A stretch of 64,000 nucleotides of DNA, taken from Fusobacteriia bacterium UBA1095 (GTDB lineage Bacteria > Fusobacteriota > Fusobacteriia > Bac17 > UBA816). The notes below the pieces were generated by a model, which saw only the letters and a program-made list of their open reading frames with translations, did not search any database and was not told the DNA's origin. Numbering within the stretch: the stretch's first letter is position 1; each line of letters opens with the position of its first letter. The stretch spans positions 7,859 through 71,858 of the forward strand of contig DCBY01000012.1 in the NCBI GenBank assembly GCA_002313635.1, given 5' to 3'. Below are positions 1 through 14,902 of the stretch, piece after piece. A program made the translations under genes and the position numbers.

Positions 1-1368
1 TGCACAGCACTTATGTACGCAACAATAAGTGGATACAAGCAAATATGTGAACTACTATTAATAAAAGGAGCAAAAGTAGATGAAATTAATAATGATGGAT
101 GGTCAGCATTAACATTTGCCGCAAAAGAAGGCCATACAGACATATGTAATTTTCTAGTAACCGTTGGAGCAAAAATTGATTTAGATGGCTTAATACCTCC
201 TATTGTAGTTGCTGTTGCTGCAGGACATGCAGGAATATGCAGAATACTTATAGAAGATGAATCAAAAATTTATTCTTTACTTTATGAAGATATAACATTA
301 TTAATGATTGCAGCGGCCATGGGACAGGTACAAGTTTGTAACCTTTTATTAGAAAGAGGGGCGGATATAAATTTTCAAAATAATAGAGGGTATACTGCAC
401 TTATGTTTGCAGCAGCAATGAATAAAGTTGAAATTTGTAAACTTTTATTAGAAAAAGGAGACGATGTAGATTGCCAAGATAATAAAGGTAACACAGCACT
501 TATATATGCAGCAGAAATGAATAAAGTTGAAGTTTGCAATCTATTATTAACAAGAAGAATAAATGTAAATGCTAAAAATAATCAAAAAAGAAGCGCATTA
601 ATGCTTGCAGCACAAAAAGGACACAAAAAGGTATGTGAACTACTATTAAAAAATGGAGCAGATATTAACGCTATAGAAAACAATGGGGCTACAGCGTTAA
701 CTTTTGCCGCCTGCATGGGAAACAAAGAAGTTTGTGAATTTTTACTAGAAAAAGGAGCAGATATAAACTATAGCAACAGCTTCTCTCCTTTGATAGCTGC
801 AATAGCTTCAAGCCACATAGATATATGCGAATTTTTAATAGATAGGGCGGCAAATGTAAATGTTGCTTTAGAGGGTACGGGATGGACTCCTTTAATGGTT
901 TCATCAGCTAAAGGACAAGTGGAGATATGTCAACTTTTACTAAAAAAGGGTGCAAAGCTAGACAAAAAAGACCACAAAGGCTATACAGCACTTATGCATG
1001 CAGCAGAGAATGGACAAAAAATGACCTGTGAAATGATTTTAAAAGAAGATAAATTATCCGTTGCTGATATCAAAGATGCTTTGATATCAGCAGAATCAAA
1101 TAATCATGAAAATATTGTTAAACTTCTTTCGGATACAATATCAAAAATGGATGATCAAAACTCTGAGGAAGAGGAAGAAAAAAATATACCAAAAGAGGCA
1201 TCTAATGGGGGTGTGTCTAATATTATTAGTATCAATGACAAATTTGAACAAGATCAAGGTATTGAAATACCAAATATGCCCATTTTAGAATCTGCTTCCA
1301 ACCCCTCTTCAACTCCTGCAGAGTCAGATGAATTAGCAAATTTGACTCATAAGATACCGTCAACATAA
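1..1368 (+). CDS. Ankyrin-repeat protein, 5' partial (frame is open from nt 1), with acidic low-complexity C-terminal tail
   Basis: About 10 tandem 33-aa ANK repeats (e.g. TALMFAA..GH.EVC.LLL..GA.VN). The reading frame stays open to the window edge. The tail is SEEEEEKN...STPAESDE. Confidence 0.8.
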   Translation, partial: CTALMYATISGYKQICELLLIKGAKVDEINNDGWSALTFAAKEGHTDICNFLVTVGAKIDLDGLIPPIVVAVAAGHAGICRILIEDESKIYSLLYEDITLLMIAAAMGQVQVCNLLLERGADINFQNNRGYTALMFAAAMNKVEICKLLLEKGDDVDCQDNKGNTALIYAAEMNKVEVCNLLLTRRINVNAKNNQKRSALMLAAQKGHKKVCELLLKNGADINAIENNGATALTFAACMGNKEVCEFLLEKGADINYSNSFSPLIAAIASSHIDICEFLIDRAANVNVALEGTGWTPLMVSSAKGQVEICQLLLKKGAKLDKKDHKGYTALMHAAENGQKMTCEMILKEDKLSVADIKDALISAESNNHENIVKLLSDTISKMDDQNSEEEEEKNIPKEASNGGVSNIISINDKFEQDQGIEIPNMPILESASNPSSTPAESDELANLTHKIPST

Positions 1369-1503
1369 TTAGGTGAAACGTTATTCTATAGAAAAGGTTT
1401 GATGAGGAATAGAAGTAAATAAAATACATTTCAAGTAGGGTAAGTTCGTGCCTTGTCCTGATTGGTCTTATTTTCAATAAGCTTTACTATTTATTTAGTT
1501 TAG

Positions 1504-13213: not shown

Positions 13214-14794
13214 CTACTCTCTGGTAGATAGCAAAGGTTCTAATACTTTGTTCATCTCTCCTATAATACCATTCATCCGACTGTTTAGGTCAAGTTTTTC
13301 GTCTAAAATATTTAGTTGATGACGTAACTTGTCCAGAGAGCTTTCTATAAGCTCCATCTTTTTAGCAAAATTAATAAACCTTTTCCCTATAACTTCTTTA
13401 CTATTTTTAATTTCTAAATTCTTGTTTAAAGAACGCATTTCACTTGCTAACTGACGCTGAACAATATCAGCAGCATCATTCAGTGAACCAACTATATTCT
13501 TGGTATCTGACAACTTATCTGTTTTCTTAATGCCACTTTCAAATTTTTCTATTCTCTTTCTAAGCAGGGATTCTCTCTTTTGTAAAGCTGTAATTATATC
13601 TGAATAAAATTGATCTTTCATTTTTGGAAAATCTACTCTATCTAACCAGTGGCATTTCATTTCAACTTCAGTAATGTATCTCAATGAAGTTGTTATCATT
13701 TTTTCTTCTTCCTCTCCAGCTTTAAGTGATCTCAATATATTGTTAGCAAAGCTGGATCCCAACTGTGTAAAACCTGGCTTTACTCCTATTGTTGACAGGG
13801 CAACCAAATCCCCTGATAGTCCCAAGGCCTTAACAAAAATGAATAGCGAGGTAACTCCAATTTTCTTCAGTAAAGAGAGGATCTTTTTCTCTCTTTCTAA
13901 ACCATTACCTAAAAATAGAAATACTTCAACAACTTCCTTATTTTGCTTAAATGCAGCTACCAACATGGCATTAAAATTATCTTTATAATCAACTTCGGCT
14001 CCCTTTGTTAGTAACCCCTCACAATAATGAGCTCCCTCTTTCTTATCCATAGATGCTTGAATTAAAGGAGTTACACCTCTATCATTTACGAAATTTAGCA
14101 TATCAATTGGTAATTTATCGAAATGACTAACCCCACTAAAAAGGGAGATAATCTCATCAAATATACCTCTTCTGCCTCTCTTCACAACATAAAGCATTAT
14201 GTTATCACCATCAATATTAAGTCTTTTTCTACCTAAATCAGGGTACCAACTTAACAATTGTGATACAAAGCTACTACCACCATCTATTAGAAGTGAAAGC
14301 GGTGAATACCCTTCATCATTGATGGCAGTAAGTTCTTTAACTACAACCTCATCAACATCATTGAAATATTTCTTTAAATTACTCTCTTCGTGCTTTTCCA
14401 AGTCAGTACAATCAACTTTATTTTCCAAATAAGAAAGCCTGTCACGGGGAATAATAGAATCAAAAAATATTTTTCTATTCAATCTGGCAGCATAGTGAAA
14501 ACAGTTACTATTGAACTTATCTTTTAAGGATAGCTCTTTTACAAAATCGCTTTCATACTTTAATGATGTTACTCTACTAATTGAAATTTGATTATTCATA
14601 TCCAAAGCTATCATAGTAAGGCTTCTGTAATTAGGGTCCTCTATCTGAGATTTGTCACCCAAAATAGATAAATCTAACCTGCCTTGAGGGTCATTCAATC
14701 CCCTCTCTACGGCTTTAACTTCTATCTTGTTATTGATTTTGAATCTATTTTGATGACAAGAAAACAGAAGGCAGAGATAAAAAATAGCTAGCAT
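13214..14794 (-). CDS. Family C lipoprotein (526 aa), paralog of 6278-7849
   Basis: Signal LLFSCH. Extensive collinear similarity to the 523-aa protein, including ANK-like segments and a coiled-coil C-terminus. Confidence 0.8.
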   Translation of the reverse strand: MLAIFYLCLLFSCHQNRFKINNKIEVKAVERGLNDPQGRLDLSILGDKSQIEDPNYRSLTMIALDMNNQISISRVTSLKYESDFVKELSLKDKFNSNCFHYAARLNRKIFFDSIIPRDRLSYLENKVDCTDLEKHEESNLKKYFNDVDEVVVKELTAINDEGYSPLSLLIDGGSSFVSQLLSWYPDLGRKRLNIDGDNIMLYVVKRGRRGIFDEIISLFSGVSHFDKLPIDMLNFVNDRGVTPLIQASMDKKEGAHYCEGLLTKGAEVDYKDNFNAMLVAAFKQNKEVVEVFLFLGNGLEREKKILSLLKKIGVTSLFIFVKALGLSGDLVALSTIGVKPGFTQLGSSFANNILRSLKAGEEEEKMITTSLRYITEVEMKCHWLDRVDFPKMKDQFYSDIITALQKRESLLRKRIEKFESGIKKTDKLSDTKNIVGSLNDAADIVQRQLASEMRSLNKNLEIKNSKEVIGKRFINFAKKMELIESSLDKLRHQLNILDEKLDLNSRMNGIIGEMNKVLEPLLSTRE

Positions 14795-14902
14795 ACGTCA
14801 AATCTCCTTAATACTTATGAATTAGCTTCTTTACTTTTAAGCATTTTATGTAAAATTATATTATATCAATAAAGTCCTTCAACGTAAAATATAGAAAGTA
14901 GG

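What the first reader, a model, noticed from the sequence alone, without database searches (positions are those of the whole stretch)
1..14800. A ~15-kb accessory island of three lipoprotein/ankyrin paralog families adjacent to the ligA-gatCAB operon
All nine genes to the left of ligA belong to only three paralogous families plus one ATPase-nuclease gene. Orientation switches twice, at a strong predicted divergent promoter region (7850-8245) and a convergent terminator (12198-12226). No housekeeping genes are interspersed, and no integrase, transposase or tRNA boundary is visible inside the window. This suggests expansion by local duplication rather than a mobile-element insertion. The island continues beyond the 5' edge of the window.
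Basis: seen in the sequence. Interest (0 to 1): 0.6.

Follow-up and report, generated by a model that had tools for sequence, protein, structure and literature searches.

The report
Expanded ankyrin lipoprotein gene array
The 15 kb left of ligA is the edge of an array of at least 65 kb of duplicated genes for lipid-anchored ankyrin-repeat proteins, found only in one uncultured marine Fusobacteria-like bacterium that also carries ATP-importing transporters, so it is most likely a home-grown toolkit for dealing with a eukaryotic host.

Summary
Nine ORFs left of ligA fall into three paralog families plus one AAA-ATPase/PD-(D/E)XK gene, with a divergent promoter region and a convergent hairpin where stated. 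There are three strand switches, not two.

The island is much larger than reported. Overlapping metagenome contigs extend it to at least 65 kb and about 30 ORFs. They form seven "head then tail" cassettes. The head is a C- or E-type lipoprotein. The tail is a B- or D-type lipoprotein, with or without an A domain and ankyrin repeats. Head-to-tail gaps are 22 bp or less.

- **Synteny:** In the nearest relatives, ligA is followed directly by aas-secA. Here aas lies about 36 kb away, embedded in the array.
- **No mobile-element signs:** no integrase, transposase, tRNA boundary or flanking repeat, and GC and GC3 match the rest of the window.
- **Ongoing duplication:** an 8,017-bp tandem repeat at 99.7% identity, a 17-kb indel between strains and ankyrin-repeat copy-number differences.
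- **Restricted families:** domains A, B and C occur in 1.84 billion representative proteins only in this species.
- **Organism:** an uncultured marine Fusobacteria-like bacterium with TLC ATP/ADP translocases.

Verdict: a lineage-specific array expanded in place, probably encoding host-interaction lipoproteins. It is a new variant of a known theme. Function is inferred, not shown.

The parts
1..1368 (+). g03: C-terminal 451 aa of a 1196-aa lipoprotein with the module order leader - B domain - A domain - ankyrin repeats. The gene starts 2222 bp left of the window.
   Evidence: Ank_2 scores 245 bits. The full gene is read on L001, which is identical to the window over 14,236 bp.
1504..4236 (-). 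g04: 910-aa leader - A domain - ankyrin protein, with about 17 copies of a 99-nt repeat.
   Evidence: Ank_2 504 bits; 50% identical to g08; repeat family D2; AGGAG ribosome-binding site; leader MIFLILVLSC.
4422..5240 (-). g05: stand-alone B-domain lipoprotein, 272 aa.
5432..6262 (-). g06: stand-alone B-domain lipoprotein, 276 aa. Its start lies 15 bp downstream of the head gene g07.
6278..7849 (-). g07: C-type 'head' lipoprotein, 523 aa. It has a degenerate ANK-like N-terminal half, an amphipathic Gly/Ala-rich segment and a long helical C-terminus.
   Evidence: Ank_2 31 bits; low-confidence model.
7850..8245 (.). Divergent intergenic region between g07 and g08 with the best promoter-like sites of the region.
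   Evidence: + strand 7986-8014 (11 of 12); - strand 7992-7965 and 7942-7914. Searches found no invertible-element-like long inverted repeat and no simple-sequence tract.
8246..10120 (+). g08: 624-aa leader - A domain - ankyrin protein, with ten in-register 99-nt copies.
   Evidence: Ank_2 300 bits; repeat family D1.
10337..11953 (+). g09: AAA-ATPase_like + PDDEXK_9 protein, 538 aa. It is the only island gene in the window with homologues outside the species.
   Evidence: It is 33-37% identical to 'AAA family ATPase' genes in Clostridium, Fusobacterium (8 places in one record) and Cetobacterium. No meaningful PADLOC or NCBIfam hit.
12198..12219 (.). Bidirectional terminator-like hairpin between the convergent genes g09 and g10.
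   Evidence: 9-bp stem with 6 G-C pairs and a 4-nt loop. A T-run follows on the + strand.
12324..13196 (-). g10: stand-alone B-domain lipoprotein, 290 aa, 17 bp downstream of the head gene g11.
13214..14794 (-). g11: C-type 'head' lipoprotein, 526 aa. It is the last island gene, 108 bp from the ligA stop.
14903..16831 (-). ligA: the right-hand boundary and the start of the conserved gatCAB-to-topA syntenic block.

Best explanation
**What it is.** Window 1-14,800 is the ligA-proximal end of a lineage-specific array of at least 65 kb and about 30 ORFs. The array grew in place at an ancestral ligA-aas-secA junction. It grew by repeated tandem duplication, unequal recombination between ankyrin repeats, and domain fusion and fission. 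It was not delivered by a mobile element.

**How it is built.** The genes are assembled from a small set of modules. Nearly every product starts with the same very short leader: Met, 8-11 hydrophobic residues, then [S/G/A]-Cys, and 5-8 residues later a basic K/R-x-K motif. This looks like a lipoprotein signal with a sorting tag. The leader is followed by an orphan alpha-helical domain (B, D, or the C/E 'head' type). An optional A domain and 5-30 canonical 33-residue ankyrin repeats may follow. The genes sit in recurring, tightly linked cassettes of a head gene and then one or more tail genes.

**Inferred mechanism.** The proteins are exported by Sec and lipid-modified at the Cys. They are then displayed on the cell surface or released, and their ankyrin and solenoid surfaces bind proteins of a eukaryotic host. 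The bacterium depends on that host, because it carries TLC ATP/ADP translocases. Duplication and repeat-number change diversify the repertoire.

**Shown:** gene structure, paralogy, module map, synteny break, absence of mobile-element hallmarks, recent duplication and indel polymorphism, restriction of the domains to this species.

**Inferred:** lipidation, localisation, host binding, and any functional coupling of head and tail.
For: - **Paralogy and modules:**
- **Leader:** a strong AGGAGG-type ribosome-binding site 5-9 nt upstream and in-frame stops directly upstream fix the start codons, so the short leaders are real.
- **Cassettes:** seven head-to-tail junctions have gaps of -14 to +22 bp (coordinates).
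- **Extension:** L001 is identical to the window. L014, L018 and L019 overlap perfectly. The L014 proteins share the window's 174,348-bp contig, and the one gene predicted to be cut by that contig's end is the one missing from it.
- **Synteny:**
  - ligA-aas-secA(-metG) in relatives.
  - The right side is collinear.
  - Here aas lies on the same strand about 36 kb downstream of ligA.
  - Relative L012 already has a head-like lipoprotein followed by an ANK lipoprotein just after secA. hhalign of C against these heads gives E = 2e-5.
- **No mobile signatures:**
  - No tRNA.
  - No long terminal repeats.
  - Pfam finds only ANK or nothing.
  - GC is 0.342 in the island against 0.341 elsewhere, and GC3 is 0.272 against 0.286.
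- **Ongoing dynamics:**
  - An 8,017-bp direct repeat at 99.7% identity.
  - A 17.1-kb indel in another sample.
  - A 940-aa versus 1039-aa allele that differs by exactly three ANK repeats.
  - A gene split by a frameshift.
- **Species restriction:** only 47 hits in 1.84 billion representatives. Every named, non-generic-ANK hit that was checked maps to the same 'Fusobacteria bacterium' MAG; five of the ten clusters looked up carried no name.
- **Host dependence:** TLC at 447 bits and a second TLC gene.
- **Lineage:** GyrB places the organism next to Fusobacterium and Ilyobacter at 63-65% identity.
Against: - No experiment or expression data bears on function.
- The leaders are atypical for lipoproteins. 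The Cys is at position 10-13 and there is no K/R in the n-region, which fails the usual positional and charge rules. Neither lgt nor lspA was examined.
- The nearest relatives are distant (LigA 48-50%, GyrB 70-74%), so the timing of the expansion is coarse.
- The distal part comes from other samples' assemblies. The junction to the window lies inside a repetitive ANK gene and is bridged by inference (contig-length bookkeeping), not by read sequence.
- The organism is recovered in 0.22-3 um filter fractions, and no host is known.
- The codon-usage correlation of the island with the rest is 0.94, against 0.99 for a split-half control. The difference is largely Ala/Glu codons typical of the repeats.
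Confidence: 0.6

Rival explanations
1. A horizontally acquired genomic island (integrative element, prophage remnant or plasmid insertion) carrying the ANK genes as cargo.
For: The array breaks a conserved ligA-aas adjacency. g09 belongs to a multi-copy AAA-ATPase/PD-(D/E)XK family that also occurs on plasmids. Codon usage differs slightly from the rest of the window, with a correlation of 0.94 against 0.99 for the control.
Against: - No integrase, transposase, recombinase or phage gene was found in about 65 kb.
- No tRNA lies at or in the island, and there are no flanking direct or inverted repeats.
- GC and GC3 are indistinguishable from the housekeeping part.
- Domains A, B and C exist nowhere else in 1.84 billion representative proteins, so no donor is visible.
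- Native genes (aas, a photolyase-related gene) are embedded in their ancestral orientation.
- Further family members sit at other chromosomal loci next to housekeeping genes.
Confidence: 0.07
2. An antigenic- or phase-variation locus of surface lipoproteins, like the Mycoplasma vsp/vlp or Borrelia vmp/vls families. One expressed gene would be exchanged with silent cassettes, or switched by simple-sequence tracts or invertible promoters.
For: - The array consists of tandem paralogous lipoprotein-like genes with internal repeats.
- Repeat-number alleles and segmental copy-number variation occur between strains.
- Truncated copies exist: g01, n01 and n16.
Against: - Almost every gene has its own strong ribosome-binding site, an intact leader and a full ORF, so these are not silent cassettes.
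- No homopolymer or dinucleotide tracts occur in promoters or 5' ends; the only ones found are a (GA)5 and coding T9 runs.
- No inverted repeats bracket the promoter region, and no recombinase gene is present.
- Paralogues are only 44-53% identical, which is too diverged for frequent gene conversion.
- Window-part sequences are identical across samples.
Confidence: 0.1
3. Periplasmic or membrane-tethered ANK and solenoid lipoproteins with a housekeeping, envelope-internal role. They would act as chaperone-like scaffolds, as proposed for Pseudomonas AnkB (recalled from memory, not tested here), and would not contact a host.
For: A lipobox leader predicts export to the envelope, not necessarily surface exposure or release. 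No dedicated secretion system was seen in the window.
Against: More than 25 fast-evolving, species-restricted paralogues with copy-number polymorphism are not expected for an envelope housekeeping role. The organism carries TLC translocases, which are typical of host-dependent bacteria. Large ANK expansions are otherwise a hallmark of host-associated bacteria; this last point is established knowledge, not tested here.
Confidence: 0.15
4. An assembly artefact, in which repeats were mis-joined or collapsed in metagenome assemblies and created an apparent island.
For: ANK genes are repetitive. Contigs often break inside g00, and the length of g00 differs between assemblies (990, 1437 and at least 668 aa).
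Against: The window part is reproduced at 99.7-100% identity in independent assemblies from different samples and pipelines: JGI, two ENA Tara assemblies and NCBI. The gene order around P0206 is the same in three assemblies. The two copies of the 8-kb repeat differ at about 22 positions, as expected for real copies.
Confidence: 0.03

Closest known systems
Ankyrin-repeat gene family expansions in obligate intracellular or symbiotic bacteria (Wolbachia, Orientia and Rickettsia, Legionella and Coxiella Ank effectors, 'Ca. Amoebophilus', Dependentiae/TM6; for example PMC4776705 and PMC2575882, which turned up)
   Same: There are dozens of canonical 33-residue ANK-repeat proteins in a small, low-GC genome that also encodes ATP/ADP translocases. 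The repertoires are lineage-specific and fast-evolving, with repeat-number variation. The inferred role is binding host proteins.
   Different: - The proteins carry lipobox-type leaders rather than T4SS or T1SS signals.
- They are fused to orphan N-terminal domains (A, B, D) that are unknown elsewhere.
- They are arranged in head-to-tail cassettes.
- They are concentrated in one chromosomal array of at least 65 kb without prophage or IS elements, unlike the Wolbachia WO-phage or Orientia repeat context.
- The host lineage is Fusobacteriota-affiliated. I know of no description of an energy-parasitic, ANK-rich member of that group, and three literature searches found none.
Paralogous surface-lipoprotein multigene families of wall-less or spirochaetal pathogens (Mycoplasma vsp/vlp/vsa, Borrelia mlp/erp/vmp, Leptospira LRR lipoproteins)
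   Same: These are tandem arrays of paralogous genes that share a conserved lipoprotein leader followed by variable or repetitive mature regions. They also evolve by duplication and repeat expansion.
   Different: No switching machinery was found: no simple-sequence tracts, invertible promoters, silent cassettes or plasmid or prophage carriers. The mature parts are ANK and alpha-solenoid domains. The leaders are shorter and uncharged.
AAA-ATPase_like (PF09820) + PDDEXK_9 (PF08011) proteins
   Same: g09 matches both domains over their full lengths and resembles 'AAA family ATPase' genes of Clostridium, Fusobacterium and Cetobacterium at 33-37% identity.
   Different: It is a single copy inside the array, with no link to the paralogue families. 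Its function is unknown in any organism, and it has no meaningful match to defence-system models.

Membership tests
Ankyrin-repeat proteins (Pfam clan Ank) | Tandem repeats of about 33 residues matching PF12796/PF00023 above the gathering score | tested here: met
   - Ank_2 scores 245, 504 and 300 bits for g03, g04 and g08.
- the repeat period is 99 nt.
- the same holds for the distal genes.
- For the C/E heads the hit is only borderline (27-31 bits against a cut-off of 27.3).
- For B there is no hit at all.
Bacterial lipoproteins (Lgt/LspA substrates) | Lipobox [LVI][ASTVI][GAS]-C at the end of a hydrophobic h-region | tested here: met
   leaders end in VLSC, TFGC, TIGC, LISC, MSSC, TVAC, LFSC and similar in nearly all island genes. 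The start codons are fixed by ribosome-binding sites and upstream stops.
Bacterial lipoproteins (Lgt/LspA substrates) | Positively charged n-region, with the Cys at about residue 15-35 (PROSITE PS51257-type rules, recalled from memory) | tested here: not met
   the Cys is at residues 10-13 and no K/R precedes it. n18 is an exception (MESIKKVGGK...). The leaders of relatives are equally short but do carry one K/R.
Bacterial lipoproteins (Lgt/LspA substrates) | Presence of lgt, lspA (and lnt) in the genome, and actual acylation | not tested
   These genes are not in the window, and no whole genome was available to the tools.
Mobile genomic island / integrative element | An integrase, recombinase or transposase gene | tested here: not met
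   Pfam scans of the 9 window island genes and 10 of the distal ORFs in about 65 kb found none. The left boundary has not been reached.
Mobile genomic island / integrative element | Insertion at a tRNA or tmRNA gene with flanking direct repeats | tested here: not met
   no tRNA in window 1-42,000 or in L001; the only direct repeats are the paralogous coding sequences.
Mobile genomic island / integrative element | Deviant base composition or codon usage | tested here: not met
   GC is 0.342 in the island against 0.341 elsewhere, and GC3 is 0.272 against 0.286. The codon-fraction correlation is 0.94; the differences are mainly Ala/Glu codons of the repeats.
Contingency / antigenic-variation loci | Simple-sequence tracts, invertible promoters or silent cassettes | tested here: not met
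AAA-ATPase_like + PDDEXK_9 family (g09) | Both Pfam domains above the gathering score, in N-to-C order | tested here: met
   157.7 bits (residues 10-230) and 53.4 bits (residues 439-533).
Secreted effectors of T3SS, T4SS or T1SS | A cognate secretion system and signal | not testable with these tools
   No secretion-system genes occur in the 64-kb window or the fetched loci. The whole genome was not available.

The most novel reading that the evidence does not exclude
The array would be the main host-interaction organ of a previously undescribed, globally distributed, energy-parasitic lineage affiliated with Fusobacteriota. Its head-to-tail cassettes would form a new two-component module. In it, a C/E-type head lipoprotein (ANK-like half, amphipathic segment and coiled coil) would anchor, sort or deliver the co-transcribed B/D-ANK tail lipoproteins. 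The shared ultra-short Cys leader with its K/R-x-K tag would be a lineage-specific surface-export signal.
Probability: 0.15. Interest if true: 0.75.

Novelty: new variant of a known kind. Interest (0 to 1): 0.5.

Why it matters
- Ankyrin-repeat expansions are one of the clearest genomic marks of bacteria that live with or inside eukaryotic cells.
- Here the expansion occurs with two ATP/ADP translocases in a cosmopolitan, nearly clonal marine bacterium related to Fusobacteria. That group is not known for energy parasitism.
- The array shows birth-and-death evolution caught in the act:
  - a 99.7% identical 8-kb duplication;
  - a 17-kb indel between strains;
  - repeat-number alleles;
  - gene fission that produces stand-alone N-domains.
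- The array also holds several orphan domains and an unusual leader peptide that could define a new sorting route.
- It offers concrete candidates for finding the unknown host and for studying how lipid-anchored ANK proteins reach host targets.

Tried and rejected
1. **GTDB representative genomes, LigA query.** The best hit was only 38-44% identical in unrelated phyla, so it was of no use for synteny.
2. **Word-indexed protein search with family C.** It returned only the query's own cluster and missed even the 44% paralogue, so it says nothing about distribution. The exhaustive HMMER search replaced it.
3. **AlphaFold model of family C.** Mean pLDDT was 48, too poor for a fold search, so none was run.
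5. **B versus D profile comparison.** Only the 28-residue leader aligns, so the idea that B and D are one family was rejected.
6. **C versus E and C versus the relatives' heads.** Weak support (E about 1e-5 to 1e-4, probability 63-76%). They are treated as possible remote homologues only.
7. **NCBIfam and PADLOC.** There were no meaningful hits. A 16-bit match of the A leader to a Leptospira LRR20 N-terminal model is only signal-peptide similarity.
8. **Rfam on window 1-17,000.** Nothing was found.
9. **Walking left from g01.** The contig shown starts inside the repetitive gene g00, so it did not bridge the gap.
10. **Left boundary.** It was not reached. NODE_128 ends in gene n00.
11. **Literature.** Three searches found no description of this organism or array.
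Full report

Yes. Window 1-14,800 holds nine ORFs left of ligA (14903-16831, - strand):
- g03: 13-1368 (+), the C-terminal 451 aa of a larger protein.
- g04: 1504-4236 (-), 910 aa.
- g05: 4422-5240 (-), 272 aa.
- g06: 5432-6262 (-), 276 aa.
- g07: 6278-7849 (-), 523 aa.
- g08: 8246-10120 (+), 624 aa.
- g09: 10337-11953 (+), 538 aa.
- g10: 12324-13196 (-), 290 aa.
- g11: 13214-14794 (-), 526 aa.

All-vs-all BLASTP shows three paralogue groups:
- g04 and g08 are 50% identical over their full length.
- g05, g06 and g10 are 48-53% identical.
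- g07 and g11 are 44% identical.

Pfam gives the following:
- Strong ankyrin hits for g03, g04 and g08.
- AAA-ATPase_like plus PDDEXK_9 for g09.
- Nothing for the B group (g05, g06, g10).
- Borderline Ank_2 (27-31 bits) for the C group (g07, g11).

None of these families recurs in the other 49 kb of the window.

The strongest sigma-70-like match in 17 kb lies in the divergent gap, at 7986-8014 on the + strand, with counterparts on the - strand. A 9-bp G+C-rich hairpin sits at 12198-12219 between the convergent genes g09 and g10. Overall counts of such sites are not above shuffles, so only their placement is informative.

One correction is needed. There are three strand switches, because g03 (+) and g04 (-) also converge at 1368/1504.

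**2. Source organism**

The 910-aa protein and LigA occur as exact sequences in 119 and 140 blocks of marine metagenome assemblies. The window lies on a 174,348-bp JGI contig, and L001 is identical to it over 14,236 bp. NCBI holds the proteins as 'MAG TPA: Fusobacteria bacterium', with locus tags DEP20_..., assembly GCA_003519105.1.

- GyrB is 70-74% identical to six unnamed metagenomic proteins and 63-65% identical to Fusobacterium and Ilyobacter.
- LigA has nothing between 100% and 50% identity.
- No species representative of GTDB matched.
- The window also encodes a TLC ATP/ADP translocase at 447 bits. A second TLC gene lies at another locus.

The organism is therefore an isolated marine lineage affiliated with Fusobacteriota that can import host ATP.

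**3. The island is far larger than 15 kb**

L001 extends 8.5 kb to the left and shows four more genes:
- g02: 975 aa, B domain plus ANK.
- The full g03: 1196 aa, B plus A plus ANK.
- g01: a 298-aa fragment that matches the C-terminal half of family C (E = 4e-40 to the C profile).
- g00: the end of a 1437-aa ANK protein.

A C-like paralogue found by the exhaustive search (P0206) led to L014. L018 and L019 followed. These overlap perfectly and give 41,133 bp of an ENA contig, NODE_128.

Three observations link this stretch to the window:
- Its right end is the N-terminal part of g00.
- Six of its proteins are recorded on a contig of exactly 174,348 bp.
- The one gene that my coordinate bookkeeping predicts to be cut by that contig's end (the 338-aa gene) is the one not recorded on it.

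The junction itself lies in a repetitive ANK gene and is inferred, not read.

Gene order, left to right:

| Gene(s) | Strand | Content |
|---|---|---|
| n00 | - | G-type ANK lipoprotein, 1278 aa |
| n01 | - | E fragment |
| n02 | - | D-A-ANK |
| n04 + n03 | - | D, then A-ANK; split gene |
| n05 | - | D-ANK |
| n06 | - | E head |
| n07, n09 + n08 | - | duplicates of n02 and n04 + n03 |
| n10 | - | D-A-ANK |
| n11 | - | E head |
| n12 | - | aas |
| n13 | + | C head |
| n14 | + | B-ANK |
| n15 | - | photolyase-related (DPRP) |
| n16 | + | E fragment |
| n17 | + | C head |
| g00 | + | B-ANK |
| g01 | + | C fragment |
| g02 | + | B-ANK |
| g03 | + | B-A-ANK |
| g04 | - | A-ANK |
| g05, g06 | - | B, B |
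| g07 | - | C head |
| g08 | + | A-ANK |
| g09 | + | AAA-ATPase/nuclease |
| g10 | - | B |
| g11 | - | C head |
| ligA | - | boundary |

That is about 65 kb and about 30 ORFs, and the left boundary has still not been reached.

**4. Anatomy: shuffled modules rather than three families**

(a) Leader.
- Nearly every gene starts with the same leader: Met, 8-11 hydrophobic residues, [S/G/A]-Cys, and 5-8 residues later K/R-x-K. Examples are MILFYLLTIGC-ESPELST-KEK and MIFLILVLSC-AFKSAEM-KDK.
- AGGAGG-type ribosome-binding sites 5-9 nt upstream, and in-frame stops just before them, show that these very short leaders are not start-codon artefacts.
- B and D share nothing except this leader.

(b) Domain B.
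- It models as an all-alpha repeat (pLDDT 73).
- It has no Foldseek match in PDB.

(c) Heads C and E.
- Both combine a degenerate ANK-like half, an amphipathic Gly/Ala-rich segment and a long helical tail.
- They align colinearly but weakly with each other (hhalign E = 7e-5).
- The C model is unreliable (pLDDT 48).

(d) Cassettes.
- A head gene is always followed on the same strand by one or more tail genes.
- The gaps are 17, 15, 9, 20, -14, 22 and 18 bp in the seven cases.
- C heads pair with B-type tails, and E heads pair with D-type tails.

(e) Fusion and fission.
- B occurs alone (g05, g06, g10), fused to ANK (g02, n14, g00) or fused to A-ANK (g03).
- A one-base frameshift splits a D-A-ANK gene into a stand-alone 338-aa D lipoprotein plus a leaderless 718-aa A-ANK ORF.
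- This shows how the stand-alone N-domain genes can arise.

**5. Origin: growth in place, not a mobile element**

In the closest available relatives, the block from Peptidase_M50/tmk/cdsA through ymdB and gatCAB to ligA is collinear with the window in L009 and L010. In three of the four relative lineages (L009, L010, L012/L013) ligA is followed within about 60 bp by aas (AMP-binding plus acyltransferase) and then secA. In L009 and L010 metG comes next. The fourth lineage (L011) is rearranged: gatCAB no longer precedes ligA.

In this organism aas is still on the ligA strand and still downstream. About 36 kb of cassettes lie between them, and at least 26 kb more follow aas in place of secA-metG.

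One relative (L012/L013) already has a head-like lipoprotein, immediately followed by an ANK lipoprotein, right after secA. Its similarity to C is weak (E = 2e-5). Another relative (L011) has an ANK lipoprotein next to ligA. This suggests an ancestral seed at this locus.

Evidence against a mobile element:
- No integrase, transposase, phage or conjugation domain.
- No tRNA.
- No flanking repeats.
- GC is 0.342 against 0.341, and GC3 is 0.272 against 0.286.
- No donor: among 1.84 billion representative proteins only 47 match a combined C+B+A profile. About half of these are generic ANK hits to one 70-residue stretch.
- Every family-level hit that carries a source name belongs to this same MAG.

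Evidence that duplication is ongoing:
- An 8,017-bp direct repeat at 99.7% identity, offset by 11,380 bp.
- A strain from another sample that lacks 17.1 kb there, with a chimeric scar gene (n01) at the junction.
- n14 alleles of 940 and 1039 aa, differing by exactly three 33-residue repeats.

The window-part paralogues are old: 44-53% amino-acid identity and 63-73% DNA identity. That part is identical or 99.7% identical in independent samples. It is therefore fixed rather than 'accessory' in the strain sense.

Members of the same families also sit at other loci beside housekeeping genes.

**6. How it most likely works**

Shown: the genes are intact, have strong ribosome-binding sites, share an export-type leader with a lipobox Cys, and encode canonical ANK arrays and orphan helical domains in tightly linked cassettes.

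Inferred: Sec export, acylation at the Cys, sorting guided by the basic tag, and surface display or release. ANK and solenoid surfaces would then bind proteins of a eukaryotic host. The translocases point to such a host as a source of ATP. Duplication and repeat-number change would diversify the repertoire.

Whether heads act together with tails, as an anchor, sorter or delivery partner, is speculation based only on conserved linkage.

Points against:
- The leaders break the usual charge and length rules for lipoproteins.
- lgt and lspA were not examined.
- No host is known.
- The organism is recovered on 0.22-3 um filters.

Alternatives considered:
- Phase or antigenic variation is disfavoured. 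No simple-sequence tracts, invertible promoter or silent cassettes were found.
- A periplasmic housekeeping role is disfavoured by the species restriction and copy-number dynamics.

**7. Comparison with known systems**

Functionally the array resembles the ankyrin expansions of Wolbachia, Orientia, Legionella, Amoebophilus and Dependentiae. Formally it resembles the paralogous lipoprotein arrays of mycoplasmas and spirochaetes.

It differs from both in these respects:
- the lipobox leader combined with ANK repeats;
- the orphan domains;
- the head-tail cassettes;
- one very large array free of phage or IS elements;
- the Fusobacteriota-affiliated lineage.

g09 is an ordinary member of the AAA-ATPase_like/PDDEXK_9 family, which is multi-copy in Fusobacterium and Clostridium. 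It has no evident link to the cassettes.

**8. Verdict**

- Novelty: a new variant of a known kind.
- Interest is moderate (0.5). It rests mainly on the organismal context and on the unusually clear record of array evolution.

Noticed in passing
window 40887-42353 (-); also L023 6314-7636: There is a TLC-type ATP/ADP translocase (447 bits) in the window. A second TLC gene lies at another locus, four genes upstream of a 2331-aa A-ANK protein. Energy parasitism of this kind is unexpected for a lineage whose GyrB is closest to Fusobacterium and Ilyobacter.
   Followed up: partly
window 28972-31819 (-): Two lipoprotein genes lie here: g27 (433 aa, leader ...GSCGKYNFRVKHKV) and g26 (514 aa, weak Ank hits). 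They sit between the FAD/NAD-binding gene and topA. In relative L009 those two genes are adjacent, so this is a second, small lineage-specific insertion of leader-bearing proteins.
   Followed up: partly
window 57725-60013: dnaA, then rnpA, a yidC-like gene and trmE lie on the opposite strand, with gyrB and gyrA just upstream. Cumulative GC skew reaches its minimum near 58-60 kb. The replication origin is probably here, about 43 kb from the array.
   Followed up: no
window 42460-42817 (+): A tRNA-Leu(TAA) is followed by three tandem tRNA-Met(CAT) genes.
   Followed up: no
NODE_128 composite (L018/L019/L014): node 3436-11452 versus 14816-22831: An 8,017-bp direct repeat at 99.7% identity, offset by 11,380 bp, duplicates three or four ANK lipoprotein genes. 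Contig k119_647706 (L020) from another sample lacks node 3801-20914 (17.1 kb).
   Followed up: yes
L018 10001-13167 (n04/n03) and its duplicate: A D-A-ANK gene is split by a one-base frameshift at ...GATTTAGTTTGTTAA.... The result is a 338-aa stand-alone D lipoprotein and a leaderless 718-aa A-ANK ORF. Both duplicate copies carry the frameshift; a second strain (L020) also encodes the 338-aa product, though its downstream ORF is cut by a deletion.
   Followed up: partly
L014 11812-14634 versus L016 10048-13167: The same B-ANK gene is 940 aa in one assembly and 1039 aa in another. The difference of 99 aa equals three ankyrin repeats. g00 is 1437 aa on the JGI contig but 990 aa on NODE_128.
   Followed up: partly
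window 22191-24569 (+), 51094-52962 (-), 62082-63626 (+): Three large ORFs (792, 622 and 514 aa) have no Pfam or NCBIfam match. The 622-aa one has the same short Cys leader (MILLFLILFVSC). The 792-aa one is inserted into the otherwise conserved ymdB-sodB stretch relative to L010.
   Followed up: no
L021/L022 (GCA_003519105.1 contig DOXJ01000050.1): Another locus carries giant ANK proteins of 2546 and 1946 aa next to a 414-aa A-domain protein. It is flanked by era/engA-like GTPases, a phosphoglucomutase-family (PGM_PMM) gene and smpB. ANK genes are therefore scattered around the genome as well as clustered at ligA.
   Followed up: partly
population level: Contigs from different Tara stations are 100% identical to the window over 20-22 kb. 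This points to a globally distributed, nearly clonal population.
   Followed up: partly
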